A stretch of DNA of 64,000 bases from assembly GCA_008632985.1 (NCBI GenBank), contig QPGO01000023.1, forward strand, positions 403,266-467,265, read 5' to 3'. A program made the translations under genes and the position numbers. The stretch is from Psammoneis japonica (taxonomy: Eukaryota). The notes beneath the pieces are model-generated. The model did not search any database. It saw only the letters and a program-made list of their open reading frames with translations, and had not been told where the DNA came from. The number at the start of each line of letters is the position of its first letter. The stretch's first letter is position 1. Below, piece after piece: positions 39,101 through 60,099 of this stretch.

Positions 39101-39913
39101 GCTTCGCAGTCTACCTCTCCCAAATTGCAGTATGCGGCGGTGTCGTTTCTGACCAAGGTTGTACCGTTTGTAATGAGCTCTGGTGTTGACGCTGCTGTCT
39201 CGCCGGCAGAACTCGCGGAGGTTTTCCACTCTGTTTTGAAGGGGTCTCAGGACCATGAGGCGCCATCAAAGCCGACAAAACGGGGAAGCGCACGCGATGT
39301 GAATAAGCTGCCCAAATCCACGGGATCGGCCAACAACCTTCTTCATAGCGCTGTCATTTCGGGAATCGAAGCTGTTTTTGATTGTGTCGATGCAGATGTC
39401 CAATTGGCTCTGCTGCAGGATGTGTCTTCTCGGTTTACAAAGTTGATCAACAGTTTTACGGTTGGCCGAAGTGTGGCGTCCGAGTGCGATCGAAGCAACG
39501 GTGGTCTCTTAGCCTGCAACTTGACGTCTCTTATTGTTCTCGCCCGTGCAAAGGACTCAGCCCACGATGTCCTATTGAACTCGGAATTGGCCATGTCCAT
39601 GGTCCGCCTTGTTCAGTGGCACTACGATCCGAAGCTATCGGCACAGGAGAAGACTGATATTTTTTGGAAGGCTGCCGCTACGCACAGTCTTCAATTCTTA
39701 TCGTTTGTGAGCCGAAACGACGACACGTTGGCAAGGGCTGGCGTTCGTCTGCAAGACTTTGTCGGGGCTTCACTGATGGTATCGAGGCCTGGAAAGGCTC
39801 CGCGAAAAGCGCCCGACTTTGTTTTTGCCCTCAGAAGGGCTGAGGAAGAAGGCGTGGCTGCGAATGCTGTTGCTGCTAGGCGAATCAAAGAGAGGATCAG
39901 CTTGCTTGAGTGA
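33181..39913 (+). CDS. Large WW-WW-FYVE protein with long ARM/HEAT-like helical region (~2200 aa); 3 exons
   Basis: [28 protein letters not shown] and [31 protein letters not shown] (WW); [17 protein letters not shown]...VRVCDLC (FYVE); introns ~36097-36179 and ~36448-36533. Confidence 0.85.
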
Positions 39914-40100
39914 AACCCGCGAGATGACTATATCCAAAATATATGAAAGCCAGAGGCTAAAGCAGACACGTTTTAGAGGTAGTATTTTAACTTGCATATC
40001 AAAGAAGCTATGGTAGGGCATTACCATTGAATCTCTTGTTGTTGTTAGAATTACTTCCCAGATCCCAGACGCGTCAACTTCGCTTTTCGGGAGCATAAAA
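39900..40100 (-). pseudogene. Duplicated 3' end of the carbonyl reductase gene plus its downstream flank
   Basis: 39900-40095 aligns with ~42643-42826 (cttgcttgagtgaaacccgcgag...ctatggtagggcattaccatt..atctcttgtt); encodes LPKSEVDASG versus LPKSEFDASG. Confidence 0.8.
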
Positions 40101-41259
40101 ACCCTAGTGGCTTTGTCGTCGGCATTCTTCTGTTCCTCCAGGACCACAAGTGAATACGACGAATCGATAAAAATATGCAGGCGATCAGCGCCGAAATAGC
40201 CCAGCACATGTCGACGACAAGCCTTGGGGCATGCCGCAACGAATACACCAGCATGGACCCCAGGCAAGCAAGTATGCAACGACATTGCAAGCGCTGTGAC
40301 CGTCATCGTAGTCTATTGACATACGCACGGAATAAGTTACACACAAGTAAAGATTGCTATATTGCACTTTATATTTTCTATTTCTATTGGAAAAGTTTCA
40401 AAGAGTCAAAAGTTGCTATTGAAATCGGTTGCGTAGGGTAACGTTGCCTCAAGAGCGCCATCAAAAGATGGAGCTCAAGCTTTTACGCATCTTCAGAGTG
40501 AAAAATATCACTCTAAAAAATGTAAAAGGGGGGACGTACTACGGAGACGACAAGTAAACTTGCGAGTCAACCGCGTGCTAAATCAACACTCCCTACGAGT
40601 GAAGACTTACCGTATCATGTCACTGATAAGACGGAACCCCAAACCCCGCGTTCCGTCAACGGTATGATCTGCTTGGCGAGCTTTTGCTGCTTCACAGACG
40701 AACGCTGCTGTCTATTTCAACAGCCGTGACCTGACGGGTCAAGCGAACAGGCAACTTCCTACGGTCAAAGACACAGGAGTAACATGGACTCCGGGCCGGA
40801 GACACGCATTCGATTTGCCCCGACCTCCGGACTTAACTGGCAACACCTACGCCACCTAGAGACAACACGCCATCAAGCAAAATGAGTTGTGGAATGCCAA
40901 ACAAATGCAAGGTCTCGATCCGGAAGAAGGGCGAGCCATCCTTTGGCGATAACGGCATTCAGGCTTTGGCAAACAACAAGCACATGGTGCGAGACGACGA
41001 CGAGTTGTGATCGAAAAACGAGTGGATTCTCTGAGATTTTGTTCGAGTCATGACCGTTGCTAAATTTCTCAATCACTATCATTTTTGTGTACATTCGTAG
41101 AATTAATACCATGATTTCGTATGTAGAAGATTGGTTGGAACTCGGTACTTTCAAAATTGTACCAATTCCTACGTACACTTTACGGTAACCGTAGAAAAGA
41201 AACTGCCGACAGTGACGTCTTCGCGGTCGAGGTCCGAGCTCCAGATTAAAGCAGGCTGA

Positions 41260-42175
41260 CAAAAAGGACTTTTCTGCCATGCTCTCTCAGTGCAGTAGAG
41301 AGGGCTAGCAGCAGCCACCAGATCAAGGCATGATGATGATAAAGCTCTGTGTTCTGACTGAAGTTAGGAGCTTCAGTTCTCCAGGTGATGGGTGTGACAC
41401 AGCTTGCAATCTCTGGAGCCAGAGCACTGCGCGTGCAGCCGAGCTCCTTCATCATGGCTGGTCATGGGCTCAAAAACAATGTGCCCATGCAACAAGTTGT
41501 CATGTGGGCAGAGCCAAAGAGAGCAGTGAGGGTTTGTGTTTTTTGGTTGGGGAAGTTCACTTCTTGTCATGGAAAGAGCCGTCATTGTCAAGAGACAACA
41601 ATGGCGTGTCAAAAGTCTTTGATGCCAAAGAAGCCACAGCTCTTCTCTTTCATCATGAGAGATGCAATGTGCTGTGGTCAACCACACATGGCTTTCTCTT
41701 GAAACAATGTGCAGCTGGCCTTGAGTCAGCTTCAATTTGTTGTTGCTCACAGCTTCCACTGGCCCGCATGGGTTGCGCATGTGGCCACCCTTTTTTGTCA
41801 CTGATTGTGTCTCCAGGATGATCTGAGTTGGTGGATGTTGACATTTCCCAGTGGGATTTCTTGCTGACATCATGGGGAGCTGACCCATGAAGAACTGGCA
41901 ACCTGCTGACCCTGTTCTTTGCAAAAAGGTGCAATTTTTTGCATTGAAGTTGCCATGAAGCTCCTCAGGAATTTGCTGAGGGTGCATGTGCCAAAGAAGC
42001 AAATGTGCAGATTGCCTTGTGTGGCTTGTGAGTGGCTGATCATTTCCAACTGCAGCAGATTTTGCAAGCTTTGTCAGCCTGAACACTGTTTTGAGCTCAC
42101 CTTTTCTAAAAACAGCAATGAGAGCAAGGATGACAGTGAGGCCTCATTTTTCAAAAAAAAAAAAAAAAAAAGTTG
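41260..42175. repeat. TpA-depleted decayed repeat ending in a poly(A) run (42153-42171)
   Basis: Near-absence of TA; A19 tract; family not recognised. Confidence 0.55.
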
Positions 42176-42180
42176 GGATG

Positions 42181-42390
42181 ACTGGCACGGCTCTGCGTGT
42201 TCAAAGCCCTTCTTGGCCGCTGGCAAGAGGCAAGAGCAGTTCATTGGTGGAGCTTACGACAAAGAGAGCAGTTTGCACAAAAACAAAAAATAACTTTCGT
42301 GGCACACTGAGGTTCAAGGTGCATGGAAGCAACAACACCAATGGCAACAATTCGTTGCCAAGGACCACGGGGCATGGTGGCATGAACAAA
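42181..42390 (-). pseudogene. Mutated fragment copy of the membrane-protein gene at 49112-49948
   Basis: Aligns with 49300-49495; still reads FVFVQTALFVVSSTNELLLP versus FAFVQTALFVVSSANELLLP. Confidence 0.9.
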
Positions 42391-42760
42391 CGGCGCATCT
42401 CACACAACGCCACACCCACACGACATCAACGCTGGTCGATGTGCGGAAGTGTGGTTCACACTGCTGCTGCTCGCACTGCTTACCTGGAGACTATTTCACC
42501 TACCGTATCATCCTCCTCTTGCCCCAAATAACAGAATGACTATGCCGGAACAACCGCCCGCAGATACTGTTATTCCTCGTAGAGATCGGAATCGATCGAC
42601 GATTTCGATGATATCGCAGGGAGTACGTCGATCCATTGTGTCTTGCTTGAGTGAAACCCGCGAGGTTGACTCTCCAAAATATATGAAAGCCAGAGGCTAA
42701 AGCAGACAAGTTTTAGAAGAAGTATTTTAACTTGCATATCAAATTAGCTATGGTAGGGCA

Positions 42761-44040: not shown

Positions 44041-47000
44041 CAGGAGGAAGCATGAAAGCAACAAGCTGTGCGCTGCAACTCTCGGAGTTGAAGCTCATGC
44101 AGTGCGATTGTTTAAATTCGGCTGACGTCATGAGGCCAACACAAGGTGCACAAAATGTGACAGTGAATAAAAACCATTTGTTTCCCCACCACATTTTCCT
44201 CTGCGGTTTCAAAATCTTGCCGTTTTTGAAAAATCCATTCACAAATCGCCGCAACGAAATCACCAGCGACATTGGTGCGGGAACAATGATGTGGGTGGCA
44301 CCACAGGTGTGAAGGAAGTGCACACGAACCCCACCTGCGGAGCATTGGAACCCGTCTGTTGAAGGCAGAGAGTCCGCTCCAGTGTGGAGAAGGATCAAGC
44401 ACTTCTCTTCAGCTTCATCATTCAAGAGAAATGTGATGATTGAAGCCTTCTTTGTCCCTCATGCACCAGCGCTCTTGTGCTGTTGAAATCGGCAGCACAG
44501 GTGTTGCCACGGCTGTTGAAACAGACAGCAGCATTCATCTGCAAAACAGCAAAAGCTTGCTGAGCAGATCATGCCATTGATGAAACACAGGGTTTGGGGT
44601 TCTGTCATGTCAGCAACATGGTGCGGCAAGTCTTCACTTGCAGGGAGTGTTGATTTGGCGCACGCAGTTGACTCGCAAGTTCTCTTGTCATCTCCGCAGT
44701 GCGCCCCCCCCTCTGTTTCTTTTTTTGGATGGTGATCCACCTGGAAAATTGGAAAAAGCTTGAGTGCCATCTTTTGATGGTGCCCTTGAGACAATGTTGC
44801 CCCACACAATGACCAATTTCTGTGTCAACTTTTGACATTGGTGTGTCTCAATCTCTTGAAACTTTCTTTGAAACCACTTTTTCCAATCTGCAGAAGTGGG
44901 AAGATGAAAAGCAAAGTGCAGCAATCTTTGTTTGCGTGCAAGTCATTCCACATGTGCACTGACAGACTGTGGTGGCAGTTGCAGTGCTTGTGATGTCATT
45001 TCTGTTTTTCACCACTTTGTTCTCTTGTTCTCTTTCCTTTTCAGATGGGGTCCACAACGGGGCAGGCATTCATTGCAGTGTGCTTCAAGATGATGTGTGC
45101 TGGGCCATTTCAGCATTGATCATCTGTGTGTTTTCCAATTGATTCGGCATTTGTTGTCAGGGAGTTGCGATCGTTCTGCCAAACTGGTGGAGCAACAGAA
45201 GAATGCCAATTTTCTAAAGAAGCTGGCTGCAAGTCTAGAACACTCTCCAGAGACAAACAAAAGATTCTTTTTTTTTTGCAAGTTCATTTGTGAGATGGCG
45301 CCATGACTCGTTCATCCTCAACTGGCTGGACAATGTTGAAAGCCTTCTTGAGCTGAACAACCAAACCATCAAATGATGCCCGTGTCAGGGTTGAGCAGAG
45401 GCTGTGAGATGAGTTGAATTGATGACTGCGTTGAACATTGGGATTGTCTTCATTGACAATCTTCATGGCCACAGACAATCCCTTGCAAGCAGTCTCCTGC
45501 TCCCAGCCATTGCTCTCAATGGAGGTCACTTTTCCAACATGTGGTCCTCCCAGGGCTGGGACACACAATGGAGTGTCAACTTTGAGAATGCCTTCCGTGA
45601 CTTTGACACCAACAATGTTTTGGATCCTTTTGGTTGAAAATGTGTTGAGGCAAAATGTTGATGATGCTGGGAAACAAAGTGACTCTTTTGGGTAAAAAAA
45701 TGCAAATCAAGTGTGAGTTGATCAAGCAGACCTGCAACTGCTTGTGTGCAACAAAGCATGTGGTTGCCACTTGCGCTGCTGCCTCTCTCATCTGCAATCC
45801 ACTGGAGTTTGTCCATGAACCTGGCAGACTGATCAAACTGGTGGTGGACAATCTCATTGGCGTGTTCTCAGGCCTTGCGCTCAATCATCAACTCAAAGAA
45901 TGCAAGGAATGCAGGGCACTCCAGACAGCCTCTCTTGTTCACAATGAAGATTTTTGTCACATCACGTTTGTGCGCTGCTCCAACTCCAATTTTGCATTCA
46001 AGGGTGTTGGAGGGTTTGCATCTTCCTGCAAGAACCACAGGAGCACTTCAAGTGTGCCCAAGGTTGAGGCTTGGACCATTGTTCTAAGACAGTCAGACCA
46101 CAGACAACAAGTCTGATGCACAGGACTGTCGACAGGGTTCCTCCAGCCATGACCTTCTTGAGTCCATTTCCAAAACTCTTGACACCAAGTGCCCCTTTGA
46201 TTTCTTTATGATGCATGCAGTCTGTTCAGACTTGATGTGCGTTTCTTGGCTTGGCAGCAGCATCAGCATTTTGGTGACAATTGGGCCATCCGCTGTGCAG
46301 TGCATGGTCTTGTTGCCCTCCTGTGCTCATGGGATGGCAGCCATTCACCTCCAGAGCATCTGCACTTGTGCCCAATCACAAGTTGGTCTGGTGTTGAACC
46401 ATGTCACAAAGCAGCATCAAGACACCTTGAACTCCCTCTCCAGTCACAACCGACATTGATGCAAATGGGACAGAGTCAGAATTGGTCTAATCTTTGTCTC
46501 CCATTTCCCAGTGCAAGTTTGAGACAAGGCCCTGTTCCTGCAGTGGAACCTCTGCTTCTACAGAATGACTGGAGACCTCTGAAATCATCATGTGCTTGGG
46601 GCGATCCTTGAGAGCATCTTGAGTTGGAGTGTCTTTTCACATCTTCCAAGCACAGCACCTGTCCACCTTGTTCAATGAAAGGACAGCTTTGTCTGCACAG
46701 CTTGTTGAGACTTTTGATTGTCTGCTGTCACAAACCATTCATGAGATTGTCATCTGGAGTGGCAATGTTGCAAAGGGATGATCCAAGAGAACAAAGATTG
46801 GCAAAGGACTCATGGACTGGTGCATCAATCACAAACATTCCCCAAACTTTGCTGTCAAACTTTTCCCTTTCATTGAGCTCAGCCTGGTTTGGTGGCTAAG
46901 AATCAATTGTTGGAAGCATGTTGCTGAAATTTTCTGTGCAACACCACCTGCTCATTCTGTTTTGTGCTTCATTGAGCTCCCAAGACAAGAAAGGAATGTC

Positions 47001-48640
47001 AAAAAAACACAGCGGGAAACAAGCTGTCCACTTCAAAATGCACAATGCCATTCTTGGTCAAGGTTGAAGAGAAACACATGCGCAGGACTGCCATGGCCAA
47101 GAGTTGTCTCAATTGACACGTTCTGGGGACAACTTTGTGGGTGGCTGGCTGATGGCTGCACAACATGTGTCAACAGGCAAATTGTGCACCCCCCATCATG
47201 TGCAAGTCTGGCAAAGTCAGCATGCATGCACTTCTCTTCAGTTGTTTCACTCATCAAAAGCAACAGAAAACTCTGTGCCAGACTTGACACTTGATGATGA
47301 CAAAAACATGATCGTGCAGACACAAACAACATTTTCTGTTGACTGCATCATGCAACACACCATGTGCAACTCTGCCTGCACTCCTGCGCCGTTGAATGAC
47401 AGAAAAAGGTGTCAAACACAGCACGTGAAAAATTGCAGTCTGTTCATTGCAGGCAAATTTTCAAAAGCATTCAGAACTCCACATCATGATTGTTTGCACT
47501 GCAAATTCTCCCTCCATCACACATCACACCCAGTTCAGTCAGTGTTCTATAAAAGTTTGAGTGTGGGTGGCAATGAGCATGTCACCAAATGCTTGTGGTT
47601 GCATCTCAGTGAGATCTTCTGGACTGTTGATTTCAAGAAGAAACCAGACTGCGACTCGCTCAAGTTGCACCTCAAGGGCTTGAACGCATTCATTGGAGCC
47701 AAGGCTTCTGAAGAAGAGTCCAAAGAATGTTTTGGGATGTGCTGGCATCACTGCTGCCCCATCAATGCAGACAGTGATTCAGAGCCAGAGGAATCTGCTG
47801 CCAGGCTGACATGATCTCGACAAGCTGCCAAGCGATCCTCTCTCCAGGCTCGCAGCTCCAAGCTCACCAAATCTCATCACACCAAAAAAGATGACAACAG
47901 TGAGGATGAGATGACTGCCATGGATGTGTCAGATGAGGAAGAATCTGAAGATGCCAACACGGAACTGGATGAAAAAGTTTCTACGAGAACCACGCCCCTT
48001 CTAAAGGTGGCGTCCTTCTTTTCCCATCCGAAGGACCGCATCGTGGTGAAACCTTTGCTCTTCAGTTCAGTGCTGCCAACACTGTTGTCTTCACAAGCAA
48101 CCACAGCAGATGCTTGCAGAAATGACATTTGGGGCAGGGTTGCACAGATCTCTTGCTCTTTGCAATGACTGGTTTGGGGGTCAGCTTCTGAAGTGAGGCC
48201 CCCCTCTGCCTTTCAGGGCACCATGCACTTGTCCAACTGTTCCTCTGCCTTTGTCATCTTGTTGTTTGGTGCAGTTCTTGCTGCACTCTTCATTGGATGC
48301 CTTGCCCCTTCAAAGACACATGCACAGGAACTGCCCCAGCTGAGATGAGAGCTTGTGTCGTGTGCATGTGGGGCTGAAGAGTTGGGCTGCCAACTGCCAA
48401 CAAACTTTTCATGGTGGATGTGGTGTGACTGTGGCAGGAGGCACTGCGTGGTGGCATCTTTGTGGCAGAAGCCAAACAGCCAAGTCGACAAGTCGATCTG
48501 CAGACCTCCCATGCATGTTGAGAGCGAGTTGGGGGCGGGGAGCGGAGTCTGAGCGGGCAAGTGTTTTTGCGTGTGAGGTTGGGTTTCGCGTGAAAGTGCG
48601 AGACGCGACGACGACTCCTCGATGCTTCCAAATGAAGTGC
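44041..48640. repeat. TpA-depleted decayed block containing the eIF5B pseudogene and unidentified repeat remnants
   Basis: Near-absence of TA; Tyr-poor spurious ORFs. Confidence 0.7.
45340..46960 (-). pseudogene. EIF5B: Degenerate copy of translation initiation factor eIF5B
   Basis: Minus-strand remnants in the correct order: AGGVAQKISAT, DAPVHESFANLCSLGSSLCNIA, QTIKSLNKL, GPIVT, HHKEIKGALGVK, VQASTLGTLEVLLWFL, GKVTSIE...SVAMKI, LTRASFDGL; stops and frameshifts. Confidence 0.82.
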
Positions 48641-49111
48641 CACGTGTAAGTTAGAAGTTCGGCACATCTGGACGACTCTTCGGCGAGGGTCTGTCTACAT
48701 AAAGTACAAGAGAGTCTTTAAAGTACCGGTAGAACAGGACTACGCCAAAAGACTTTCCATTAGGCTCTAAAAGTTGATATACATTTCCTGTGTACAAGTC
48801 GACGAAGGTAAGGAAGTAGCAGTTACCGTCTTCAGGGTTGATGAAAAGGTGTTCATCCTGCAGTCGGGTACGAGCACATCCGAGACACCACTGCACAAGA
48901 TTTCATCACTAATTTTTGAATGTCGTCAGATTCCTTAGATAATTATTAAAGATGTAATCTAAAATCTATGACACCGTCTTGTCGTTTTGAAAGTACGACG
49001 TAGCATGCAGATTCGGTGCCGCCAGTTCAAGGGTCTCTGCCTAGCTAATGTAACTATGTCCGCTCGCTTGAATTTCATGCAGGTCGATGCAAAAGAGACT
49101 TGACAAATGCT

Positions 49112-49948
49112 TTACGCCACCTTCTTTTTGATGACGGACGCAGACGTCTTCTGATGATACCAACAGATGCAATACGTCGCTGCAATTCCAACACCCAAGA
49201 ATCCGTCATAGGTCAAGTGGCCACCCAATGCCATGACGCCACGAGTACACATGGTTGCTTCCGCCCAGGCCACAAGAGTCGACGGGAATCCAACCACAAC
49301 CGGTACGACTGCGTATTCAAAACCCTTCTTGGTGGTTGGCAAGAGTAGCTCGTTGGCGGAGCTTACGACAAAGAGAGCAGTTTGTACAAAGGCAAACCCA
49401 AACTTGCGTGGCACGCTAAGGTGCATAGAAACAATAACCACAGCAATGGCAACAATTCGTTTCCAAGGACCACGGGGCATGGTGGCACGAACAAATGAGA
49501 TCCAAAACACGCAAAACAGAAAAAGCTCAAGGATGACTCGAGGCGGAGACAATGCCCCACCTCGCATGTCGTCCAAGTGGCTCACTTCGGGATCAGACAT
49601 GAATCCGTCTCGCATATTCTTGCCGATGAATCCGTGCGCCAAGCCGTGAATAAAGTGAGCCACCGCGTTGCTGATTAAAAACTTGTTGGCATCCGCCATG
49701 CCGTCGGAAGCGTGACGCATCTTGCGGTAGAGTACACACATGATTCCACAGACAAACGAATCAAAGTAGAAACAAAGATCATGGGAGGTCCAGTAGTCCT
49801 TGTTGGCGTTGGCGATGCAAAACCCATTTTCTTTCCAGACCGGGTCGAACTTATTCCACTCTCGCGCGACTGCCACGGCATAGACCGCGGCGGATAGAAA
49901 GGAAAGCATGTTGGCAGTATCGCCTACCTTCTCATACGACAAAGTCAT
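49112..49948 (-). CDS. Multi-pass membrane protein of unknown function with His motifs
   Basis: Intact 278-aa ORF with normal Tyr/TA usage, several hydrophobic helices, SHDLC, HGLAH and GGHLTYD motifs. Confidence 0.75.
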   Translation of the reverse strand: MTLSYEKVGDTANMLSFLSAAVYAVAVAREWNKFDPVWKENGFCIANANKDYWTSHDLCFYFDSFVCGIMCVLYRKMRHASDGMADANKFLISNAVAHFIHGLAHGFIGKNMRDGFMSDPEVSHLDDMRGGALSPPRVILELFLFCVFWISFVRATMPRGPWKRIVAIAVVIVSMHLSVPRKFGFAFVQTALFVVSSANELLLPTTKKGFEYAVVPVVVGFPSTLVAWAEATMCTRGVMALGGHLTYDGFLGVGIAATYCICWYHQKTSASVIKKKVA

Positions 49949-52900
49949 TTCGGCGTGGTGCTAGGTGAAGAGGAGTTGCTAATGATACTAAATTGTGCTA
50001 ATGTTGGCGTCACTTTGTGAATTCTCGGTCCCACATCAATGTGAACAACACAGAATTCTCTCGTCATTCCAATTTCATCACGCGTTTCCCGTTTTTTGGT
50101 TTCCCGCCATTTTTTGATCTTTTCCGGGTTCTTTCATTGACATCAGCATTGCAGCGCGTGTGATCATTCTGAATTCATCGCTCGCTCGTCGACCTTACGC
50201 GCGTGTCCGTCGCACGTCAAGGCGTTGAGCAAAGTAAACGTACGCAGGATTGAAAGGGCCCAGATGGTTGGAGCAACACGCAGTTCAAAGACACAACTTT
50301 GGAGAAGGCCCATGATGCCATTGCAGGCTTGTTGGGAAGCAGCATTGCTGGCAAGAAGCTTTGCATTTGGTTTGATCACACAGGCATTGGCGCCACCTCT
50401 CAGCAGCAGAAGCAGCACGTCTGCGCCACATGTGGGGCCAAAATGTCGCGATCTGCAAGTGGAGAAGTTTTGGGCTGCAAGATCATTTTCTTGCCACAGA
50501 TGTTGGCATGCATGCAATGGCACAGAGTCACCACAAAAAGCAGCCACTGGAAAGTCATTTCGTGTGTGATCTTGGTTGGGGTCAAAATGAAATCACTGGC
50601 TCGACCCCAAAATCTCGGTTCCAAAAGCAGTGCCTTGTTGGCAAAGTGCCCTGAGACCATTGTGCCAAACTGACTTTGTCATTGAACATGGTCTGCAAAG
50701 CCCTTCTAAGTGAGAATCAGCAAAAAGGTCAGCTTGGTGGATCTGCAATGTTTGCAAAATGTCTTGAGTGCTGGCTCTCTCGTGAGCGCTCTCCAAAGCT
50801 GGCAGATCGTGGGAGGGCACTTTGCAAATCTTGGTTGCTTTCCATGTTGCTTTCCAGATTGCTTTCCAGGTTGCCAGGCCATGCAGTGCTGCAGTGTTTC
50901 TGGTGTGCACTGCCGCATCTCCAAGCCTGGGAGGCTGCTCCAGCTCCCGTTGTCACGCAGAGGTGCGCGATCGTCCATCACTGGCCCATTTTTGCATTCT
51001 TTGGCACAACAAACTCCTTCAAGGGTGAGTGCACACAAAGCTTTTGTTTTTTTGTGCTTCTGTTTTTGAATGATCAAAATTGAAGGAGTTCACACTGCTG
51101 AATGTGGGCTTTGGCTGGCATTGCATTTTGCATGAAGGACACACACATCAAAAAATGCTTTCTGTGTGCACACTTTTTCATTTTGTGGAGCCTGTGTTTG
51201 CAGTCTGCTTCAAGAACTCAACTGACATCTGAGCACAACCACTTTCTACAGACACCAAAAATTTCATTTTCATGGAATGCACCACAAAATGATGATGTCC
51301 TCTCATCCATCTCATCCACCAGCCCCCTTTGTGCACACATTTCACTGACACATTGAATGCACCATGGTCAAGAAAAGGAAGCAAACTGTTCTGGAGTTGG
51401 CCATTGACACAAGTCAGGAACTGGCAGCTGCAAAAACAGAAGGTGTTGTTGTGATGGGCTGTTCTTTCTAAGACAACCCACCCCTCCCAAGTCAATGCTG
51501 AAGGAGCAACAGCCACTCCCTCCAACCTCACCTCTGACAAAATGCCGCCATCACTCCCTCTGTTTCTCCTGCCAGCCAAACTCCTGTCATCTGCAGCACG
51601 CTTCAATTTTGATCTTCAAGCCCATGACAAAACCCACAAAGATCCTCAACAAGTGTGCTGTGTTGTGCAGCAGTCAAAACAACATCAGAGTGCACGACAT
51701 CGTAATGTCTGCACACATGATAAAAACACATTGCTGTGTTGTGAAATCTGCTCATCTGCACATGACGGTTTTTGTCATTTAGTTGATCATCAATCTCCTG
51801 CTGTTCTTCATGTTTGAACACAGATGTTTTTTAATTTTTGTGCTCTGCCTTTTTCACAACAACTGACGATCTTTAACAACAAGCCAAACATTGCAATTGC
51901 ATGCAATGAAATTTTCATCATGCAAAGTGCGCACCAATTGTTTGGTCAATGACTGTGCTCCAATTTGCCTGGTCGTCCGCATGGTCCTCTTCATTCCACA
52001 TGTCTTGTCTGCTCTCTTGCAAGAATTTCAAACATGCCACTGCCGCATTGGATGTTTCCTCGTCGCCGTTCCAAAAAAGCCACACTGCATTTCTTGCATT
52101 TGGGTGAACATCATCGAGAGGAAGAGGTCCCTCGAAATGCTGAATCGCATCACTGCTCCCCTCTTGACGTCGTGTTGTCGGCTTCTTTTTGTCTTTCTTC
52201 ATTTTGCCCGTCCCATTTTTCTCTTCCTTCCTCGTCTTGGCGCCGCCTGTTTTCACCGTCTACGGCATCTTTCCATCCGAGTTCTTCTTTTTCATCGATC
52301 CCGTCGCCATTGCCTTCATCTCTTGTTGTTGTTGTTTTTTTTTCTGTTGTGTCACTTTGTTTTGGATCCATGTTTCTGACTTCTCTCCATGCCATCTCCA
52401 TTTCCAAATGTTTCTTTGTGATTGTTTGCATGCGTCACTTGAAGGCACCCACGTGTTTTTCACGCACCTTAACGCGTGTGTAGAAATCCATGTTGTTTTC
52501 CAGCACATGCACCCTTTTTCCTGATGCTGTTCCGCACAATGTTTTCTTCCATCAATTCCACACTCCGCATTGCCCTTTCCCGGCATGATCTCAAGCAGGA
52601 TTTCCCTGGGAGAAGTCACATGCGCATCTGGCAGGTTTTTGCATTTAAAACTCCAAATCGCACCAGGCGCATGTGTGACTTCTCCCACACACCACTCTGG
52701 CACATTTCTGCAGAAACCAGATTTTTTGGTGTTGGAACAGCAACCATGGCGCCGCATGACCTGTCGGTTGCCTCTCTGTTGCAAGACAACAATGATTCCC
52801 ACCTCGAGGAGGCCGCATTTGAATCTCTCTTTGCCAACGGTTTTGGAGTGATCGACAGCAATGAGCAGAGCCGTGTCAAAGCGACAATCGAGACGGTGAA

Positions 52901-55900
52901 ATCCAAGGTTCAGTTTCACCGTGATTCCACTTATGATCCCTCTCCGAACTGGATCGCGCTTGCCTGTGTGTGGCAAAAGTCGAAGGGCAGACCTCATTTT
53001 TTTGCAGAGCTGATGGCTGTGAACCATGTTGTTGCAAAGGAACTTGGGTGCAAGAGCTTGCTGCACTTTCTTTCCGCAAAAGGATGGAGTTGTTCCAGTC
53101 AAGGCGCCAAACATCCTCATGTGTTGGAGTGTCGCCGTGCTCCCAAAGCAGAGGATGCGAAAGTCGTCGGCGACAAGGCAAAATCAGACGCGTTCCAGGT
53201 CCAGGTGGGACCTCGCACTGCTGAACTGTGACATCGACAGTTTTTTGAATCACGTCGCATGTCGCACACGTAGATTTCTACGTGATTTTTTCAATGTTTT
53301 GTGTCATTTTACGGTGCACTTGTTGAGCGATCCGTCCAACAACTTTTGACATTTTTTGTTGCAGCGCGATTCTATGATGTCTTGAGAATCGCGTGGGGCA
53401 GGCGCATTTGCAAAAACATCAAGTGGTGAGAGGCACAATTGCACCACAAACTTGGCCGTTCATTTGATGTTGAAGACAAATGTGTCCATCAACTGAATTC
53501 TCACACTGCAGAGCTTGCACGTAGAATTCTGCGGGCCCAATGTCACACGGAGTCCCACCTGGGGCTGGAACGCGTCATCAACAGACATTGCAACCAACAT
53601 GATGGCAAAGATTTCCATGTTGCACAAGCTTCTCCATGATCCCGGATTGTGCGACCCAAAGGGAGAGCCACTTGTCAAGCACACCAAGCTGAGAAGTTTT
53701 GAAGGGAAGGTTTTGCGTTACGTGCAATGCCTTCACATTGGTTTTTTGATTCTTTGTGACAAGATTCCACCATGCACACCTGAAAGGAATGGTGATTGCG
53801 ATCATTGGCTGCACTCCCTGTTCGGTGAATGTGATGAGACATCAACTTGCATCAACTTTTTGGAGAATTTCCTGGCTCTTGGTCACTGTGAGATGACCAA
53901 AGAGGAGTGCCCCATGTCCTTCCCTGAATTCAAAAGTCGTTGTTCCGCCAACACAAACATTCTTGGGAAAAGCCTGTGCGACTGGCGATGCTCGATGTCG
54001 AGCGAGAACAAATGTGTGCAACACATGTTGATGAGACTCTTTTAAGATGTGTGAAAATTGATTGTGTGGTTTCTGCCGCTGATGATTCCGGCAAAAGCAA
54101 GGCTGCAAGGGATCGTTTTGAGGCCATGTGGAAAGCCAGGCTTTGTGACTTTGCCACTCAGTGCAAGAAGAAAGAAATCGGCAATGCAATTCCATCCGTT
54201 ACGAAAAATGCTCGGAAACGAAAAAATCCAAATGGCATGAATCCATCACATTGTTTGATTGATTGTTTGTGCTCCTCTTCTTGTCTCTAATTCTTCCATT
54301 CTTCTTGCCACCTCTTTAGCCGCCTCCCTTTGCTCCTCAAGCCCCAGTCTCAAAAACCCCAAAGATGGTGAACCTTCTGATGTTTCTCAGAACGAATCGC
54401 TGATTCTCCAACATGTGCCGACTCTCAAGGAACAATTTGAACATTCCCGAACAAAGTGGCCGACCCTCGGCACGACTCATCAGTCGCCTCCTCCTCTGCC
54501 AGACAATTTCACAAAAGAAGAGCTTGTGAAAGTGTTTCCTGAACCATCTCCGTTTGCGATTCCGGGTGAGGTGAAGTCACAACATTCTCACCTTGTCATC
54601 TTTGAGGAAACCCCCATTTCCGGTTCCTTCAAGGGGAACTGTGTCAAGCACCAGTCATTCCACAGCATCTCCGATTTCTGCTTGGTGAATCACCTCCGCA
54701 AGTTTGTGCATGGATTTGAAAACGGCACAGCTCCCAATGATCCGATGCAAGAATCGATGGCTGCGATTGCTTGCCCAACCCAGCCAACCTCTCATTTTTC
54801 TGACATGGTCACTTGTTTGTGACACACGGACAAGATGTGTCAGAAATGCTTTTTTGGATTGCCAGTCAGTGTGTCGTCGACACTCCATGCAGTGTTGGAA
54901 CATGGCGAGCAGAACGAAAAAAGGGATGGACCAGAATGCAAGTTGCGCTGTCGGATCTGTTTTGGTTGTTGTGGCCAGAATTACGAAGTTGTGGACGGTG
55001 AGTTAGCTGAAGTGGGACCTGCTCACAAGCCTGGTGCTGTCTTTGGCAGGGACAAGTGGGAGAAGCTTCCAAAGGATGTGCAGGCAATGACAGCCTCAAT
55101 CTTGGATGCCACGCAACTCTGCGAGGACGAAATTAATCTTGTTGCATTGAAAGAAATGCGTTCCTTCCATGACCTGCACCGTGACAGTCTTTTCGCGGCT
55201 GAGCTCTGTAAGATGGTTGGAGCCAAGCACATTGGAAGGGAAGGCGTGGAAATTCAAGTTAAGTGCATCTTGTCGTCCGGCAAAAAATCCGTCAATTCGA
55301 AAACTGAGCTGCACATTGACAAAGAGGATTGTGACATGGATGGGTGCACCAAGACTGGTGCTCTTTGCTCATCACTGCGAGACGCTGTTGGTTGCTCTTG
55401 GTCGTTGAAGGTCATCACTGCATCCAAAGGCAATGCTGGAAACTGTGTCAGTTCGGCACATGGGCATGCCGAGTTCCGATCGCGTGTGCATGGTCATTTC
55501 GCAAAACTTGATCTGTCACATGCTGCAGCAATGATGAGACACCGTGGCCCTTGTCGTCCTCCGTCGGGCAAGCCAACCCACAGAAACATCAAAATTTTTT
55601 TCCTTGACCCTCACTCTGCGTGGGTGGAAGAGGAAATTGGCAAGCCAAATCTTCTGTCCAACACAATTTAGTGTCCCGTCATTGTCATGCCGAGGAAACG
55701 TCCTCCGTTTGCCATCGTGAAGGACCCCAATTTCTCGTGCGGTTGTTCGGCAATCATCGACAACCTCGATGAGGTTGGTGCACACGATTGCTTTCGTTGC
55801 GCCGTTGTGGCTGGGTGTCAATCCGGATTCTCCCGTTTTTGCCGCTTGTTGTGCAACACAGATGCTGTGAAGCGTCCTTTTGTGGCTGGCGATCGTGCCC

Positions 55901-58405
55901 TTCATTGCTTCAGAGAAGCCATGAGGCTGTTCGGCAGCATTGCGGGGGATCGCAATGACCAACGCATGCAGAGCCTGGGACTCAATTTTGAGGAGGTTCA
56001 TGTGGCAGAGTGCGGGACGAAACTCAACGGTTTGATGGATTTGCTTGTTGGCAGACTGGTTGTCATCATCGACTGGATCAATGACAATGTTGGCAAGCCA
56101 ATGTTCAACCACAAGGCGATCGAGGATGTGTTTCAAACCGTGGTCCAAACATGGGATCACACAGGTGCTGATTGTGGAGAGTTCAGATGCATGAACTCTG
56201 TGCAGACATTGATGCTGTGTGGCACAGGGATCCATCCTCACCCTGACCTTCACAATCTTGTCTGTCCGGCAGCCAAGTTGGGAGCGGCGAAGCAAATGGA
56301 GGAAATGAAGGTCCCGGTGGAGGAGCGCGATTTACTCTTGGAACAGATGGAGGGTGATTTTGATTTGGAAGACTGTGGAAAGAATGGTCCAGAGTCTTTG
56401 CTGTGTGACCTGAGTGCAGCTCGTGAAAAGATGGGAATCTGCGATGTCTTTTGTTGCGGACAGCATCTGTTGCTCTTGTTCTCTGATGGGCAATCAATGA
56501 CCAAGCGGTTTGGAAGGTGTGAATGGGAGCCAGCCCCATTCGTGTCGATTGATGAAGTTCGAGCCGAACTGGAATGGCAAAGAGAGGTCACTTTTTCGTG
56601 GCAATCACATTTGTTTTTTGTCTGATTGTGCCAACATTGTCACATTGATTTCTCGTTCTAACAGGAAGAAGGCCGCCGGTGATTTGTTGTCATTCACAAT
56701 GAACAAAAGTGATGATTGCAAGGAGGAGTCAATTGACAAGAAAACAAGCAAACTTCCAACTGCTTGCATGGGTGAAGAGGACAAAAGCGAAGAGCCTGTT
56801 GACGATGAGCACAACCAAGTTGCACATTGCTCCAAGGGTGAAGAGGACCACAGCGACTTGGGAGATTGTTTTGCAAGTGATGAAACTGACGGGGAAACAC
56901 ACAATGTGCCATGGTTGGGGATGACCCGTCCACTCAATGCAAGGCAACTGTCTTCTCAAGAATTGTGCTCTGAGAAGGGGGTGGCCTCAGTGTTGTCCGA
57001 CCAACACAGGCGAGATGAGGCCCGCGCAATGGCATTTGAGGAATCTAACAAAACAACCACAAATGTCATTCTGACAGTTTCTCTCCAAGACGGACATCCT
57101 GATCTGCACTTAAATTGCAATGTGAAAGCAAGAGATTTCGTCAAGAGAGTCAAGCAGCAGTTTGAGAAACTTGTTGATTTCGACAATCATGGGTTCGACC
57201 AAATCATGTTGGACTGCTGCTGGATCCCAGATGGAGAGTGGCACGACAGTCGTTTTGGGACGACTCAATTTTTCCAAAATCCAATTGATCTTTGGGCCTT
57301 GCTCTCCAAAAACAAAGAAGGGGGGGACACAGTGATTCCCTTCACTCTTGCAACCTTCTTCCAGGTTGTCAAACAATGGAAGAAATTGTCAGCTGTGTTC
57401 GACACATGCACAATGGACAAGGATGCTGCAAAGAGCTGTGCGAGCACATTCTTTGCAAGCAACCTTACAACCCAAGAACAACAAGAACAGTGGTTGGGAA
57501 AGCCTTCCAATCAGGAAGAAGCTCATCTTGGAGTTTCCCCAAAGAAGACATCAGAATGAAAGCAACGGAAGGTGCTTGCACCGCACTGCTTCACGTGCAC
57601 CGCAATGACTTTGCCAATTCTGAAAGGATCAAATTCATCATGTTTGCGAGAAAGAGTTGGGCAATCACTGTGAGTGAATGACAGATTGACACGTGCACCC
57701 CATTTTAGAAACAAATCTGACCAACACTTCCTTCTGTCCTGTGTGGCCCAAACAAGTGGGGCCTTTTCTTGTGCTTCCACTGCTCCTGGACATTCTTCAC
57801 AAACCAAAACATTGTCCCCAATTGCTTTGACAGGGACAACCCGCAACTTGGGTGAGTGCTGAGTCTTCTCAGGCATTGAAAGCAAGTTGTTTTGTTTGTG
57901 ATCAAGCTGCCAGCGACTGACCAAGTCTGCATGCTGATGCTGTTGCCTCACAGTTCTCTGGTCAATGTTGACAGGGCCTTCATCAAGACTCATGCTCGTC
58001 ATCCTTGTCTTGTGGATGAGAAGGGAAAAGAAGAACAACACGCAAAAAATGGCGGGAAAATGGCAAACATTACATTGTCTTCCAGATTTGGATGACTCTC
58101 ATGGGTGTGACGTGTCTGCATTTTGATTTTTTATCTGGCATTTGCAGCGAACATTGTTCTTTTTTATTTGCTGTCAAAATGAAGGATGTTGTCTCCGTTG
58201 GAACGCAATGACAGCCACATCAAAAAGCAAGTTGGGCTGTTCATTGTTACACACAAACATGTTTTCAAATTTCAATGTTGCCGACAACAATTTGTGCAAT
58301 GTCACAGAGAAAAATGGAGTGGCTGGCTGTCTCAACACGACCCAGACGACGGTTGCACTGTCAAACAGCAACGCTGCTCTCATTGTTGCCGTGCAAAGAT
58401 CAAGA

Positions 58406-59724
58406 TGTCGTCTCCAGCACCACCGGCAAAGAAGAGAAAGAAAAATGAGACTGTCAAGCCAATGAGCCCGAGACTTCAGGCAGTGTTGAAGAGAACAGGT
58501 GCGCAGGCAGTGCATGGTGCATTGAAATCAGAAGCAGAGAAGGTGGCTGGAAATGATCTCTTTCCACAAGTGAAGTTTCTCAGTCCATCAGAGCTGGCAA
58601 GCAATGGGAGCGTCTCAATGTTTGTCAAGAAACAGATTGCTGGTGGCAACATGGACACTTCAAATTGGTCAGGAACTTGGGAGGAATGGGCAAAAAAGGC
58701 AGTAAAAAGGCAAATTGACAATCGCAGAAACACGGTGTGTTCGGCCATTGGGGCGGAGGCAATGGCCCGCAAGTCAAGTGACCAATGTGTGTGACTCGAG
58801 AGTTGCGTGCATCTCACAAGAAGATGACGGTGATGCTTTGTCTGTGTGGGCGTTGTCACTGAGGAAGAGGGAAAGGAAAAAGAAAAGAAACTCAAGGCGG
58901 CAGTCAGGAGGAAAAAGCAAAACAGGAAAAAGTCAAGCCGTGACAAGAATGAAGAGAATGACATCCCGTTTGTGCCGACATGGGATCCGTTCAGCCTGGA
59001 CACTGTCACCGGCGGCAAACGAAGGAACAAGCAGGCACGCAAGTGGTTCTGTGATCACATCCCACCTCAAACCAAGCAAAAGCAGGCATGGAGTCGCACC
59101 GTCAAAACTGGGAATGCACAGGTCTCACAGTTGTTTGTGGCAGGTGACGAAGCTTTGGCGCCATCAGCCATGGAGAATTGTTGGCAGGTGTGGGCACACA
59201 GGAACAAGGAGGAGGCGGTGGAAGAATTGGGTGAGGAAATGGAGCCCGAAGAAACAAGGCCTGCCCCTCAGCACACGAAGCCAAAGAAACAACGAGAGTC
59301 TTGGGGAGATGACGGAATCATTCGGTTCAACGATTCATGCAAAGAGGTGACAAAAGACAGAGACTCCAAGGAGGGCAAGGAGTTTGAAAAGTGGCACGAG
59401 GAGATCAAGAAAAGCGAGTGCAAGAAGTCCGGAGAAGCAAAAAAGAAGAAGAAGACAGCGCCGACCGGTGATGCGGAGAAGGTGAAGGCAATGAACAGCC
59501 CAATGGTGGAGAGCAGCAGGGGTGACAACAGCAATGACGATGAGCAGGAGGAAGGAGCAAAAGGAAAAACAAATGACGGAGGAGATGAATCCGATGAAGA
59601 CAAGTCCAATGAAGACAAGTCCGATGATGATTGTCAGCTCAGTTTGAGAGAGTTGCAGCAAGAAAATGTGCACACAGTTGACACAGCACTCGGTCATTGC
59701 ACTGCAGATGTGACAAGGAATTGA
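58406..59724 (+). pseudogene. Transposon-associated accessory ORF remnant (DEA..hhEN.W ... W..DG..RFN type)
   Basis: LFPQVKFL...W, AGDEALAPSAMENCWQVW, SWGDDGIIRFNDSCKEV; resembles from memory a repeat-associated diatom protein type; not verified. Confidence 0.45.
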
Positions 59725-60099
59725 CTCAACTGATGAAATGTTTTTCTCGTTTAAAATGATGTTTGCGAAATTAACAAACCAAGGTTTGTGTGGCAATGCA
59801 ATCACGCATTGGCACATGGCAACAAGGTGGAGGCAGAAATGGTGATGTGGACATGGTGAAAAACAGCACACACAATTCTCAACAAGTTGTTGCAACATTG
59901 GTGCGCCAAACTTGCAACCAGAGGTTGGCCTGTCATCATGTGACAACAACATTTTGCAACATTTTAATGAATTGTCATCATGCAAATCTACACATTTTTA
60001 ACATTTCGTGCACTCTGATGGCCAAGAGATGTGTTGTCTTGTCTTGTGCTGCCATGACTCAGGAGCAACAAGCCTGCACCTTGCTGGGTGGCCCTTCAC

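What the first reader, a model, noticed from the sequence alone, without database searches (positions are those of the whole stretch)
42181..42390. Internal control: duplicated gene fragment has 7 of 8 TA sites converted relative to its intact parent
Seen: 42181-42390 aligns with 49300-49495 of the intact membrane-protein gene. Parent->copy changes: ggTAcg->ggCAcg, gcgTAtt->gcgTGtt, gagTAg->gagCAg, tgTAca->tgCAca, cTAag->cTGag (beside a small duplication), caTAg->caTGg, caaTAac->caaCAac. Only ctTAcg survives. About 5 of 11 CG sites changed to TG/CA, and most other positions are conserved. This polarises the mutation and shows both strands are hit. The parent copy is untouched, unlike fungal RIP, which mutates both duplicates.
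Basis: seen in the sequence. Interest (0 to 1): 0.88.

Follow-up and report, generated by a model that had tools for sequence, protein, structure and literature searches.

The report
TA-erasing hypermutation recorded by a pseudogene
A decayed copy of a neighbouring gene shows that this diatom-like genome has turned almost every TA step into TG or CA inside sharply bounded silent blocks, a DNA-editing-like mutation pattern so far reported only from one unrelated alga.

Summary
42181-42415 is a frameshifted pseudogene fragment of the intact 278-aa membrane-protein gene at 49112-49948(-). Of the parent's 8 TA sites, 5 are clean TA>CA/TG transitions, 2 more are the same change beside indels, and 1 survives. 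5 of 11 CG became TG/CA.

Polarity is supported. One converted site is Tyr212 (TAC), invariant in 21 of 21 aligned homologues and His (CAC) in the copy.

The fragment lies in one of five blocks (29,924 of 64,000 bp) with TA obs/exp of 0.03-0.06, against 0.57-0.73 elsewhere. A second, larger control (40278-40733 vs 45000-44506) lost 26 of 26 TA, 19 to CA/TG. A normal/normal duplicate kept 12 of 15, with none converted. Read contigs at about 50-70x depth match the TA-free sequence exactly, so this is not a consensus artefact.

TG and CA outcomes are interspersed, so both DNA strands were hit.

The best reading is a TpA-specific A:T>G:C hypermutation confined to delimited silent DNA, with ordinary CpG decay on top. 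The same signature was shown experimentally in Bigelowiella natans (2026 preprint). Here it appears in a diatom-like genome, near saturation, and hits duplicated host-gene pieces.

The parts
42181..42415 (-). Frameshifted pseudogene fragment (about residues 145-217) of the membrane-protein gene. It records the TA>CA/TG and CG>TG/CA conversion.
   Evidence: Alignment to 49299-49517. Three-frame translation shows the parent's peptide pieces in different frames.
49112..49948 (-). Intact parent gene: 278 aa, no Pfam family, member of a diatom-dominated family. It sits in a 1,353-bp island of normal TA content (48647-49999).
   Evidence: ORF; no Pfam hit; 315 homologues, best 38% identity; top three atlas clusters have Bacillariophyta as commonest phylum; island TA obs/exp 0.69.
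41366..42480 (.). TA-depleted block holding the fragment: 3 TA in 1,115 bp, obs/exp 0.04, CG obs/exp 0.33.
   Evidence: Two-state segmentation. Step-like edges.
42153..42171 (+). 19-nt poly(A) tract 9 bp to the left of the fragment. Possibly the tail of a retroposed piece that makes up the left part of the block.
   Evidence: Read directly from the sequence. Origin not resolved.
1..4099 (.). TA-depleted block (8 TA, obs/exp 0.03) with a Copia-type pol relic at 835-1866(+).
   Evidence: SH3_retrovirus, E 3.9e-8.
17841..24071 (.). TA-depleted block (20 TA, obs/exp 0.05; CG obs/exp 0.30). It holds a tandem duplicate, 23166-23321 / 23327-23487, whose copies differ by CA/TG double mismatches.
44169..48646 (.). 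TA-depleted block (12 TA, obs/exp 0.04). It is a mosaic holding the mutated copy of control pair B (44506-45000) and an eIF5B domain-IV fragment (45287-45706, minus strand).
50000..64000 (.). Largest TA-depleted block (56 TA in 14 kb, obs/exp 0.06; CG obs/exp 0.47, locally up to 1.0). Origin unknown. It runs off the end of the window.
   Evidence: No Pfam, homologue, atlas or viral match.
40278..40733 (+). Unmutated (normal-TA) copy of control pair B. Its inverted partner at 45000-44506 has lost all 26 TA.
39901..40094 (+). Negative control: duplicate of 42642-42827, with both copies in normal DNA. 12 of 15 TA kept and none converted to TG/CA.

Best explanation
The fragment is a dead partial duplicate of the neighbouring membrane-protein gene. 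It lies inside one of several sharply bounded blocks of silent DNA, made of transposon relics and duplicated host-gene pieces. In these blocks a TpA-specific transition process has converted nearly every TA to TG or CA, that is, A:T>G:C at the A that follows a T, on either strand. Ordinary decay of methylated CpG to TG/CA has run more slowly alongside it.

Shown:
- The direction of change.
- The TpA specificity.
- That both DNA strands were hit, in interspersed independent events.
- That the process acted on DNA after duplication.
- That it spares genic DNA and unmutated duplicates only a few kb away.
- That it is present in read-level contigs.

Inferred: that an enzyme drives it, as a genome-defence-like editing of silenced or foreign DNA, as proposed for Bigelowiella natans. 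My split on the chemistry is about 45% adenine deamination in DNA by an ADAT2/TadA-type deaminase. Their natural substrate is A34 after the near-universal U33 of tRNAs (recalled, not from a call), which would explain the T-A rule. I give about 30% to oxidation of thymine at TpA (5hmU/5fU made by a TET/JBP enzyme) with T>C mispairing, and the rest to something else.
For: Pair A: 5-7 of 8 parent TA converted, 1 kept.

Pair B: 26 of 26 TA lost, 19 to CA (12) or TG (7); 15 of 22 CG became TG/CA.

Pooled A>G: 25 of 60 A's in TpA context against 15 of 247 other A's (P = 8e-11). Pooled C>T: 20 of 66 at CpG against 14 of 202 elsewhere (P = 5e-6).

Negative control pair C: 12 of 15 TA kept, 0 converted.

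Outgroup: Tyr212 is invariant in 21 of 21 sequences and is His in the copy.

Blocks: 99 TA in 29,924 bp against 1,307 in 34,076 bp.

Mass balance: TA+CG fall by 74.5 per kb and TG+CA rise by 71.9 per kb. No other dinucleotide shifts by more than 9.3 per kb, and base composition is unchanged.

Purine/pyrimidine recoding raises the identity of pair B from 77.8% to 93.7%, so the extra divergence is made of transitions.

A tandem duplicate inside a block shows 2 CA/TG double mismatches and 1 TA/TG in 163 columns, so conversion followed duplication.

TG and CA outcomes are interspersed (runs tests P = 0.90 and 0.62).

Read contigs at depth about 50-70 match the window with 0-2 differences across depleted blocks. 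One of them is a 665-nt contig over 41915-42578.

The same signature was measured de novo in B. natans mutation-accumulation lines (preprint 10.64898/2026.01.13.699255; results and discussion read).
Against: No enzyme, chromatin or methylation data exist for this organism, and its genome is not held.

Block edges are step-like within about 50 bp at 6 of 8 boundaries. That fits pre-mutated insertions or element-delimited targeting better than spreading heterochromatin.

Nothing shows that the process is still active. The few read-level differences from the window are not at TA sites.

The read run may be the very data the window was assembled from, and its platform is not on record.

Only 1 of the 7 conversions in the fragment is polarised by an outgroup.

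The origin of most depleted DNA is unknown: 2 of 145 ORFs have a Pfam hit.
Confidence: 0.72

Rival explanations
1. The signature is the same, but it was acquired before integration. The blocks were hypermutated as mobile, viral or extrachromosomal DNA and then inserted, so the chromosome itself is not edited in place.
For: Step-like block edges at 6 of 8 boundaries. A Copia-type relic. A poly(A) tract beside the fragment. Unmutated duplicates and a high-copy, TA-rich short repeat lie within a few hundred bp of block edges.
Against: Both strands are hit in interspersed order, unlike editing of a single-stranded replication intermediate. The blocks are mosaics of host-gene pieces: the membrane-protein gene, eIF5B and pair B. 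Near-complete loss (33 of 34 sites) needs many hits. A tandem duplicate diverged by conversion after it was duplicated, although that could also have happened before integration.
Confidence: 0.15
2. RNA-level A-to-I hyperediting (ADAR-like, with a 5' U preference) of double-stranded transcripts, followed by reverse transcription and insertion of the edited copies.
For: ADARs favour a U upstream of the edited A (stated in the preprint's discussion). There is a poly(A) tract beside the fragment and a retrotransposon relic in another block.
Against: One RNA strand would give only TG, or only CA, within a copy. Instead, outcomes alternate within 200-500 bp: C G C C G, and 12 CA with 7 TG interspersed. 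Loss is close to complete (33 of 34 sites). The poly(A) tract lies on the wrong side for a sense retrocopy of the gene fragment. CA/TG differences exist between tandem copies in place.
Confidence: 0.05
3. Sequencing or consensus artefact: modified bases at TA and CG in heterochromatin are miscalled, so the TA-free blocks are not real sequence.
For: Modified thymine at TA occurs in repeats of another SAR lineage: 5hmU in dinoflagellates (PMC11572971, passages read). The platform of the runs is not on record.
Against: k-mer contigs of run X1, at depth about 50-70, span depleted DNA for up to 2,032 nt with 0 differences and no strand-dependent bubbles at former TA sites. The copies also differ from their parents by transversions and indels, and tandem copies differ by CA against TG at the same site. 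A base-caller would not produce that. The run may not be independent of the assembly.
Confidence: 0.03
4. Reverse polarity: the 'parents' gained TA through RIP-like C>T changes at CpA/TpG, and the TA-free copies are ancestral.
For: Without an outgroup, TA/CA and TA/TG differences are symmetric.
Against: Tyr212 (TAC) is invariant in 21 of 21 homologues and is His in the copy. The parent is intact and has the same TA content as all other genic DNA. The TA-free state extends over unrelated flanking DNA. The normal/normal duplicate shows no such changes.
Confidence: 0.02
5. No special process: neutral decay plus selection against TA (avoidance of stop codons, TATA elements or nuclease sites) in old non-coding DNA.
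For: TA is mildly under-represented in all DNA here (obs/exp 0.57-0.73 in normal blocks).
Against: Obs/exp of 0.03-0.06 over 30 kb of apparently functionless DNA. Replacement is almost only by the two transition products (24-26 of 33 lost sites). Non-TA A>G is 15 of 247. Boundaries are sharp.
Confidence: 0.02

Closest known systems
TpA-targeted hypermutation of integrated NCLDV and virophage DNA in Bigelowiella natans (Mettrop et al., bioRxiv 10.64898/2026.01.13.699255; abstract, results and discussion read)
   Same: [quoted passage not shown] The process is confined to particular regions of non-genic or foreign DNA, and TpA-poor, CpA+TpG-rich clusters are enriched for transposon domains. The enzyme is unknown; an ADAT2-type deaminase is proposed.
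   Different: That organism is a rhizarian. This window's named protein relatives are diatoms. Depletion here is near saturation: obs/exp 0.03-0.06 over 47% of the window, against a Rho of 0.45 for their NCLDV region and 124 small clusters. The targets here include duplicated host-gene fragments. CpG decay accompanies the loss here. Activity here is inferred from sequence, not measured. The preprint's main text does not mention flanking context, diatoms or stramenopiles. Its supplements were not available to me.
Repeat-induced point mutation (RIP) of ascomycete fungi
   Same: Context-specific transition hypermutation that inactivates duplicated and mobile DNA and leaves a dinucleotide signature.
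   Different: RIP is C:G>T:A at CpA, so it creates TpA, and it mutates both copies. Here TpA is destroyed and one copy of each duplicate stays untouched. The RIP features are taken from abstracts listed and from recall.
5-hydroxymethyluracil marking of repeats in dinoflagellates (PMC11572971; abstract and passages read)
   Same: A SAR-lineage system acting on thymine, preferentially in TA (and TC), enriched at repeats and linked to transposon silencing.
   Different: It is a base modification, not a recorded mutation. No 5hmU data exist for this organism. The step from modification to T>C mutation is my inference.
ADAR hyperediting and APOBEC editing of retroelements in animals
   Same: Deaminase-driven clustered transitions in mobile elements. 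ADAR prefers a 5' U.
   Different: Those give strand-coordinated clusters arising from a single-stranded or RNA substrate. Here the outcomes on the two strands are interspersed, and the context is not the APOBEC TC/CC context.

Membership tests
B. natans-type TpA hypermutation | Substitutions are almost exclusively A:T>G:C transitions | tested here: met
   24 unambiguous TA>CA/TG changes among 33 lost TA sites in pairs A and B, or 26 with the two indel-adjacent sites. Purine/pyrimidine recoding raises pair B identity from 77.8% to 93.7%.
B. natans-type TpA hypermutation | Restricted to the TpA dinucleotide | tested here: met
   A>G at 25 of 60 A's after T against 15 of 247 after A, C or G (P = 8e-11).
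B. natans-type TpA hypermutation | Both TpG and CpA products (either strand) | tested here: met
   Pair A: 3 CA and 2 TG. Pair B: 12 CA and 7 TG, interspersed. Block-wide TG and CA obs/exp are both 1.6-1.8.
B. natans-type TpA hypermutation | Confined to particular regions, with the rest of the genome normal | tested here: met
   Five blocks against four normal stretches, with step-like edges. The normal/normal duplicate is unaffected.
B. natans-type TpA hypermutation | Targets are of viral or transposon origin | tested here: inconclusive
   One Copia-type relic was found, but host-gene fragments are present too. 143 of 145 ORFs have no Pfam hit, and two viral-contig scans were negative.
B. natans-type TpA hypermutation | Elevated de novo rate measured across generations | not testable with these tools
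   Needs mutation-accumulation lines or several strains. The sequence gives only a lower bound of roughly 25-fold: 33 of 34 sites lost against about 10-14% background divergence.
Fungal RIP | C:G>T:A at CpA/TpG, enriching TpA | tested here: not met
   The direction is opposite: TpA is erased.
Fungal RIP | Both copies of a duplicate are mutated | tested here: not met
   The parent gene and the normal copy of pair B keep normal TA content.
ADAR-edited retrocopies | A>G confined to one strand of each copy | tested here: not met
   Outcomes alternate between strands (runs tests P = 0.90 and 0.62).
CpG decay through 5-methylcytosine deamination | CG>TG/CA in the same DNA, leaving a CpG deficit | tested here: met
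   5 of 11 CG (pair A) and 15 of 22 (pair B) converted. Block CG obs/exp is 0.30-0.47 against about 1.0. Methylation itself was not tested.

The most novel reading that the evidence does not exclude
Diatoms (stramenopiles) and chlorarachniophytes (rhizarians) share an enzymatic system that edits chromosomal DNA at TpA in silenced units. It would work either by adenine deamination or by TET/JBP oxidation of thymine, as in the 5hmU-at-TA mark on dinoflagellate repeats. In this diatom it has run to completion and erased TA from transposons, and also from stray duplicates of the cell's own genes. That would make TpA editing an ancient genome defence across the SAR supergroup, a mirror image of fungal RIP.
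Probability: 0.35. Interest if true: 0.92.

Novelty: new member of a known kind. Interest (0 to 1): 0.8.

Why it matters
Natural DNA-level A:T>G:C editing used as a genome defence is barely documented. The one report, a 2026 preprint, concerns two viral inserts in a rhizarian alga, and the enzyme is unknown.

This window shows the same signature in a diatom-like genome and at far greater intensity. It comes with built-in controls: a parent and copy, a second pair, a normal/normal pair, and a tandem pair. Together these fix the direction, the context and the strand symmetry of the change.

It also shows that host-gene duplicates are hit as well as mobile DNA, that edges are sharp, and that CpG decay is a separate and slower process.

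If the pattern holds genome-wide, it gives three things:
- a second system in which to look for the enzyme, which would be a natural TA-specific adenine editor or thymine oxidase;
- a simple way to date and map silenced DNA in diatoms;
- a warning that repeat and pseudogene detection in such genomes fails unless transitions at TA and CG are allowed for.

Tried and rejected
- **Whole genome.** None is held for this window, so deaminase or TET/JBP genes could not be sought.
- **Word-index search with the parent protein.** No hit. The exhaustive search then found 315 homologues.
- **Cluster look-up of the four best homologues.** It gave no organism names.
- **DNA outgroup.** The nearest relatives are only 24-38% identical as proteins, so only non-synonymous sites could be polarised. 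One of the two such sites was informative.
- **Same phenomenon elsewhere.** 69 environmental loci around relatives of the parent gene (487,419 bp) hold no 1-kb window with TA obs/exp below 0.2; the lowest is 0.29. These are short, gene-rich contigs, so this says little about repeats in those organisms.
- **Origin of the largest block.** Only 2 of 145 ORFs (90 aa or longer) in depleted blocks have a Pfam hit. A homologue search with 56501-57556(+) found nothing. An atlas search with 55672-56622(+) gave no usable hit. Two scans of viral contigs found no relative.
- **Hidden repeats.** Purine/pyrimidine-recoded self-comparison found no further long repeats between blocks.
- **Strand-coordinated clustering of outcomes.** Absent.
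- **3'-neighbour rule for which strand is hit.** My hand tally of the pair B sites listed was mixed and I dropped it.
- **TYTA as a protected context.** 73 of 99 surviving TA have TT or TC just upstream on one strand, against 325 of 1,307 in normal DNA (P = 2e-22). Yet all 10 ancestral sites of that type in pairs A and B were lost. Protection is therefore at most partial, and re-creation of TA is an alternative.
- **Expression.** No RNA holder is listed for this stretch. Run X2 covers mostly the genes, including 48972-50047 at depth 65, but its kind is only guessed.
- **Earlier scan notes.** Nothing relevant.
- **Literature.** Searches for this signature in diatoms or other algae found only the B. 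natans preprint. One search found nothing. led to the dinoflagellate 5hmU paper.

Full report
**1. The observation**

blastn aligns 42193-42390 with 49309-49495 at 79.6% identity over 201 columns (E 5e-47). A local alignment runs from 42181-42415 against 49299-49517.

The partner lies inside an intact 278-codon ORF, 49112-49948 on the minus strand. The ORF has no Pfam family but has 315 homologues in an exhaustive search, the best at 38% identity. The copy is a pseudogene piece: the parent's peptide segments appear in three different frames.

The parent segment has 8 TA sites, at 49304, 49314, 49346, 49364, 49385, 49417, 49426 and 49435.
- Five are clean transitions in the copy: 3 TA>CA and 2 TA>TG.
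- One is kept.
- Two sit beside a 7-bp insertion and a 3-bp deletion.

Five of 11 CG became TG/CA. Of the 159 other bases, 141 are unchanged.

A:T>G:C transitions hit 5 of 15 aligned TA bases against 2 of 81 other A/T bases (Fisher P = 8.5e-4). The background is 37 of 174 other dinucleotides changed. Against it, 5 of 8 gives P = 0.014 and 7 of 8 gives P = 1.3e-4. The description is therefore correct. On its own the fragment is moderately, not overwhelmingly, significant.

**2. Polarity**

One converted site is the codon of Tyr212, which is TAC in the parent and CAC (His) in the copy. In an alignment of the parent with its 20 best homologues (30-39% identity), Tyr212 is one of 16 invariant columns. 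TA is therefore ancestral at that site.

The other conversions are synonymous (GTA>GTG, CTA>CTG, TCT|ATG>TCC|ATG) or fall in unconserved columns, so proteins cannot polarise them. This codon mapping is my reading of the sequences. Their polarity rests on context: the pseudogene state of the copy and the absence of TA from the unrelated DNA around it.

**3. The setting**

The window as a whole has TA obs/exp 0.33 and TG and CA at about 1.4.

A two-state segmentation finds five depleted blocks: 1-4099, 17841-24071, 41366-42480, 44169-48646 and 50000-64000. Together they cover 29,924 of 64,000 bp. They hold 99 TA (obs/exp 0.03-0.06), CG at obs/exp 0.30-0.47, and TG and CA at 1.6-1.8. The four normal stretches hold 1,307 TA (obs/exp 0.57-0.73) and CG at about 1.0.

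The books balance. TA+CG fall by 74.5 per kb and TG+CA rise by 71.9 per kb. No other dinucleotide moves by more than 9.3 per kb, and base composition is unchanged.

TA loss is uniform across the blocks, but CG loss is not. The 500-bp windows in 52001-56000 keep CG obs/exp of 0.57-1.0 with TA at 0.03-0.12, while windows in 18501-21000 have CG at 0.03-0.13. The two losses are therefore separate processes, and the TA process is the faster or more thorough one.

Six of eight block edges are steps. TA density goes from normal to nil within a few tens of bp. The edges at 17841 and 24071 have 300-400 bp of intermediate density.

All recognisable genes lie in normal DNA: PDS5, an HMG-box protein, an NAD-binding protein, MIOS, a WD40 protein, a WW/FYVE protein, an SDR and the parent gene. 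The parent sits in a 1,353-bp normal island between two blocks.

**4. Replicates and controls found here**

A self-comparison gave a second parent/copy pair. The normal copy is 40278-40733 and the inverted copy is at 45000-44506, inside a depleted block.
- Of 26 TA in the normal copy, none survives. 12 became CA, 7 became TG, and 7 changed otherwise or are gapped.
- Of 22 CG, 15 became TG/CA and 6 are kept.
- Recoding to purine/pyrimidine raises identity from 77.8% to 93.7%, so the excess divergence is made of transitions.

Pooling both pairs, A>G occurred at 25 of 60 A's preceded by T against 15 of 247 other A's (P = 8e-11). C>T occurred at 20 of 66 CpG cytosines against 14 of 202 others (P = 5e-6).

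A negative control has both copies in normal DNA (39901-40094 and 42642-42827, 87% identical). It kept 12 of 15 TA, converted none to TG/CA, and kept 6 of 7 CG.

A tandem duplicate inside a block (23166-23321 and 23327-23487) differs by two CA/TG double mismatches, one TA/TG, five CA/CG and one CG/TG in 163 columns. That is what independent resolution of ancestral TA and CG after the duplication would give.

Contigs from elsewhere in the same read sets also carry TA where the window's depleted block has CA or TG, at 45504, 45543, 45562, 46802 and 46823. This is consistent with intact parents of further fragments.

**5. Real sequence or artefact**

Contigs built from public run X1, at mean word depth of about 50-70, lie on the window with 0-2 differing letters. 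They include:
- 665 nt over 41915-42578, which covers the whole fragment;
- 2,032 nt over 45627-47658;
- 1,968 nt over 47826-49793.

Strand-dependent miscalling of modified bases would break such contigs at every former TA, and that is not seen. The run's platform is not on record, and it may be the data the window came from. This check therefore rules out a consensus error, not every conceivable artefact. The transversions, the indels and the CA-versus-TG differences between copies also argue for real divergence.

**6. What the blocks are**

Of 145 stop-to-stop ORFs of 90 aa or more in the blocks, only 2 match Pfam. One is a Copia-type pol relic (SH3_retrovirus, 835-1866, plus strand). The other is a fragment of eIF5B domain IV (45287-45706, minus strand). 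The eIF5B match is confirmed against solved eIF5B chains at E 1.3e-7.

Adding the membrane-protein fragment and pair B, the blocks are at least partly mosaics of transposon remains and stray pieces of host genes. The 14-kb block at the right end matched nothing.

A 19-nt poly(A) tract lies 9 bp from the fragment. How the fragment got there is unresolved.

**7. Organism**

The top three atlas clusters for the parent family have Bacillariophyta as their commonest phylum. The named relatives of the window's PDS5 are diatoms: Skeletonema marinoi, Stephanocyclus meneghinianus and Thalassiosira pseudonana, at 43-49% identity, with the best unnamed hit at 58%. The parent protein itself is not in the protein collections. 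The window therefore comes from a diatom-like stramenopile that these collections sample poorly. It is not Bigelowiella natans, which is a rhizarian.

**8. Mechanism**

What the sequence shows:
- The change is A:T>G:C at the A of TpA. Because TA is its own complement, this is the same event as T>C at the T of TpA on the other strand.
- The two outcomes alternate along each copy (C G C C G in pair A; 12 CA and 7 TG interspersed in pair B; runs tests P = 0.90 and 0.62). Many independent hits therefore fell on both DNA strands. A single edited RNA or a single-stranded cDNA would give one product per copy.
- Only the copy inside a block is affected. Repetition alone is not enough: the parent gene, the normal copy of pair B and a high-copy, TA-rich short repeat at about 41047-41198 (summed depth about 2,250) are untouched.
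- 33 of 34 ancestral TA are gone, against about 10-14% divergence at other positions. From this I estimate a per-site rate at least some 25 times the background. That is a lower bound, because the sites are saturated.

The rest is inference. The pattern fits an enzymatic, targeted process on silenced units, as proposed for B. natans.

I favour adenine deamination by an ADAT2/TadA-type enzyme. Their natural substrate is A34 following the near-universal U33 of tRNA (recalled, not from a call), which would explain the T-A rule.

A serious alternative is hydroxylation of thymine at TpA by a TET/JBP enzyme, with T>C mispairing of the oxidised base. In dinoflagellates 5hmU replaces T preferentially in TA and TC, is enriched at repeats and silences transposons (PMC11572971; abstract and passages read). 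The mutagenic step is my inference.

Sequence alone cannot separate the two routes. The sharp edges leave open whether editing happened in place on delimited units or before insertion.

**9. An unexplained detail**

The 99 surviving TA are not random. 73 have TT or TC immediately 5' on one strand (TYTA, or TARA on the other strand), against 325 of 1,307 in normal DNA (P = 2e-22). This is not the context of CA/TG in the blocks, where TT plus TC make up 14%. The bias remains when the block edges are trimmed: 68 of 84.

Yet all 10 ancestral TYTA-type sites in pairs A and B were lost. The bias therefore means either slower conversion in that context or preferential re-creation of TA there.

**10. 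Comparison with what is known**

Six literature searches found one report of this signature: the B. natans mutation-accumulation preprint. There, 230 of 231 mutations in two integrated viral regions were A>G or T>C, and these fell on TpA. TpA-poor, CpA+TpG-rich clusters were enriched for transposon domains.

This window meets every sequence-level criterion of that phenomenon. It differs in lineage, in degree (near-total erasure over 47% of the window), in hitting host-gene duplicates, and in the accompanying CpG decay.

It is the opposite of RIP in direction and in symmetry. It fails the one-strand criterion of ADAR- or APOBEC-edited retrocopies.

I file it as a new member of a very recently described kind.

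**11. Limits**

- This is one 64-kb window, with no genome, no methylation or chromatin data and no evidence of current activity.
- Only one site is polarised by an outgroup.
- Most of the depleted DNA is of unknown origin.

Noticed in passing
window 4098-5593: A 1.5-kb element bounded by perfect 44-bp inverted terminal repeats (4098-4141 and 5593-5550). It has no long ORF and normal TA content, and it sits exactly at the edge of a TA-free block. It looks like a young non-autonomous DNA transposon that the TA process has not touched.
   Followed up: partly
window 45287-45706 (-): A fragment of translation initiation factor eIF5B domain IV inside a TA-free block (Pfam GTP_EFTU_D4, E 1.9e-7; solved eIF5B chains, E 1.3e-7). 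Other contigs in the same read set carry TA where the window has CA or TG at 45504, 45543 and 45562, so an intact parent probably exists elsewhere in the genome.
   Followed up: partly
depleted blocks (99 sites; list): Surviving TA are strongly biased to the context TYTA/TARA: 73 of 99 against 325 of 1,307 in normal DNA, P = 2e-22. Yet all 10 ancestral sites of that type in the two parent/copy pairs were lost. Slower conversion and re-creation of TA are both possible, and the bias is unexplained.
   Followed up: partly
window about 41047-41198: A short TA-rich repeat (15 TA in about 130 bp) with summed read-contig depth of about 2,250 against a baseline of about 60. It lies 170 bp outside a TA-free block and is unmutated. 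High copy number alone does not trigger the process, or the repeat is too short or too young.
   Followed up: no
window 48972-50047 and 42733-43761: Run X2 (kind only guessed) covers the parent gene (depth 65) and the SDR gene (depth 13) with clean contigs. It covers the TA-free blocks hardly at all. This would fit a transcript-like library and silent blocks, but it is not evidence of either.
   Followed up: no
window 52001-56000 versus 18501-21000 and 60001-64000: CpG loss varies widely between TA-free stretches: CG obs/exp of 0.57-1.0 in the first against 0.03-0.26 in the others. TA loss is uniform. This may give a relative age scale for the blocks.
   Followed up: no
window 42153-42171: A 19-nt poly(A) tract 9 bp left of the pseudogene fragment. 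It lies on the strand opposite to the fragment's coding sense, and read contigs are cut there.
   Followed up: no
window 7759-10788 and 11399-13501 (-): PDS5 (a cohesin-associated protein) is split over two long ORFs, presumably by an intron. The best database relative is only 58% identical, so the organism is poorly represented in public protein sets.
   Followed up: no
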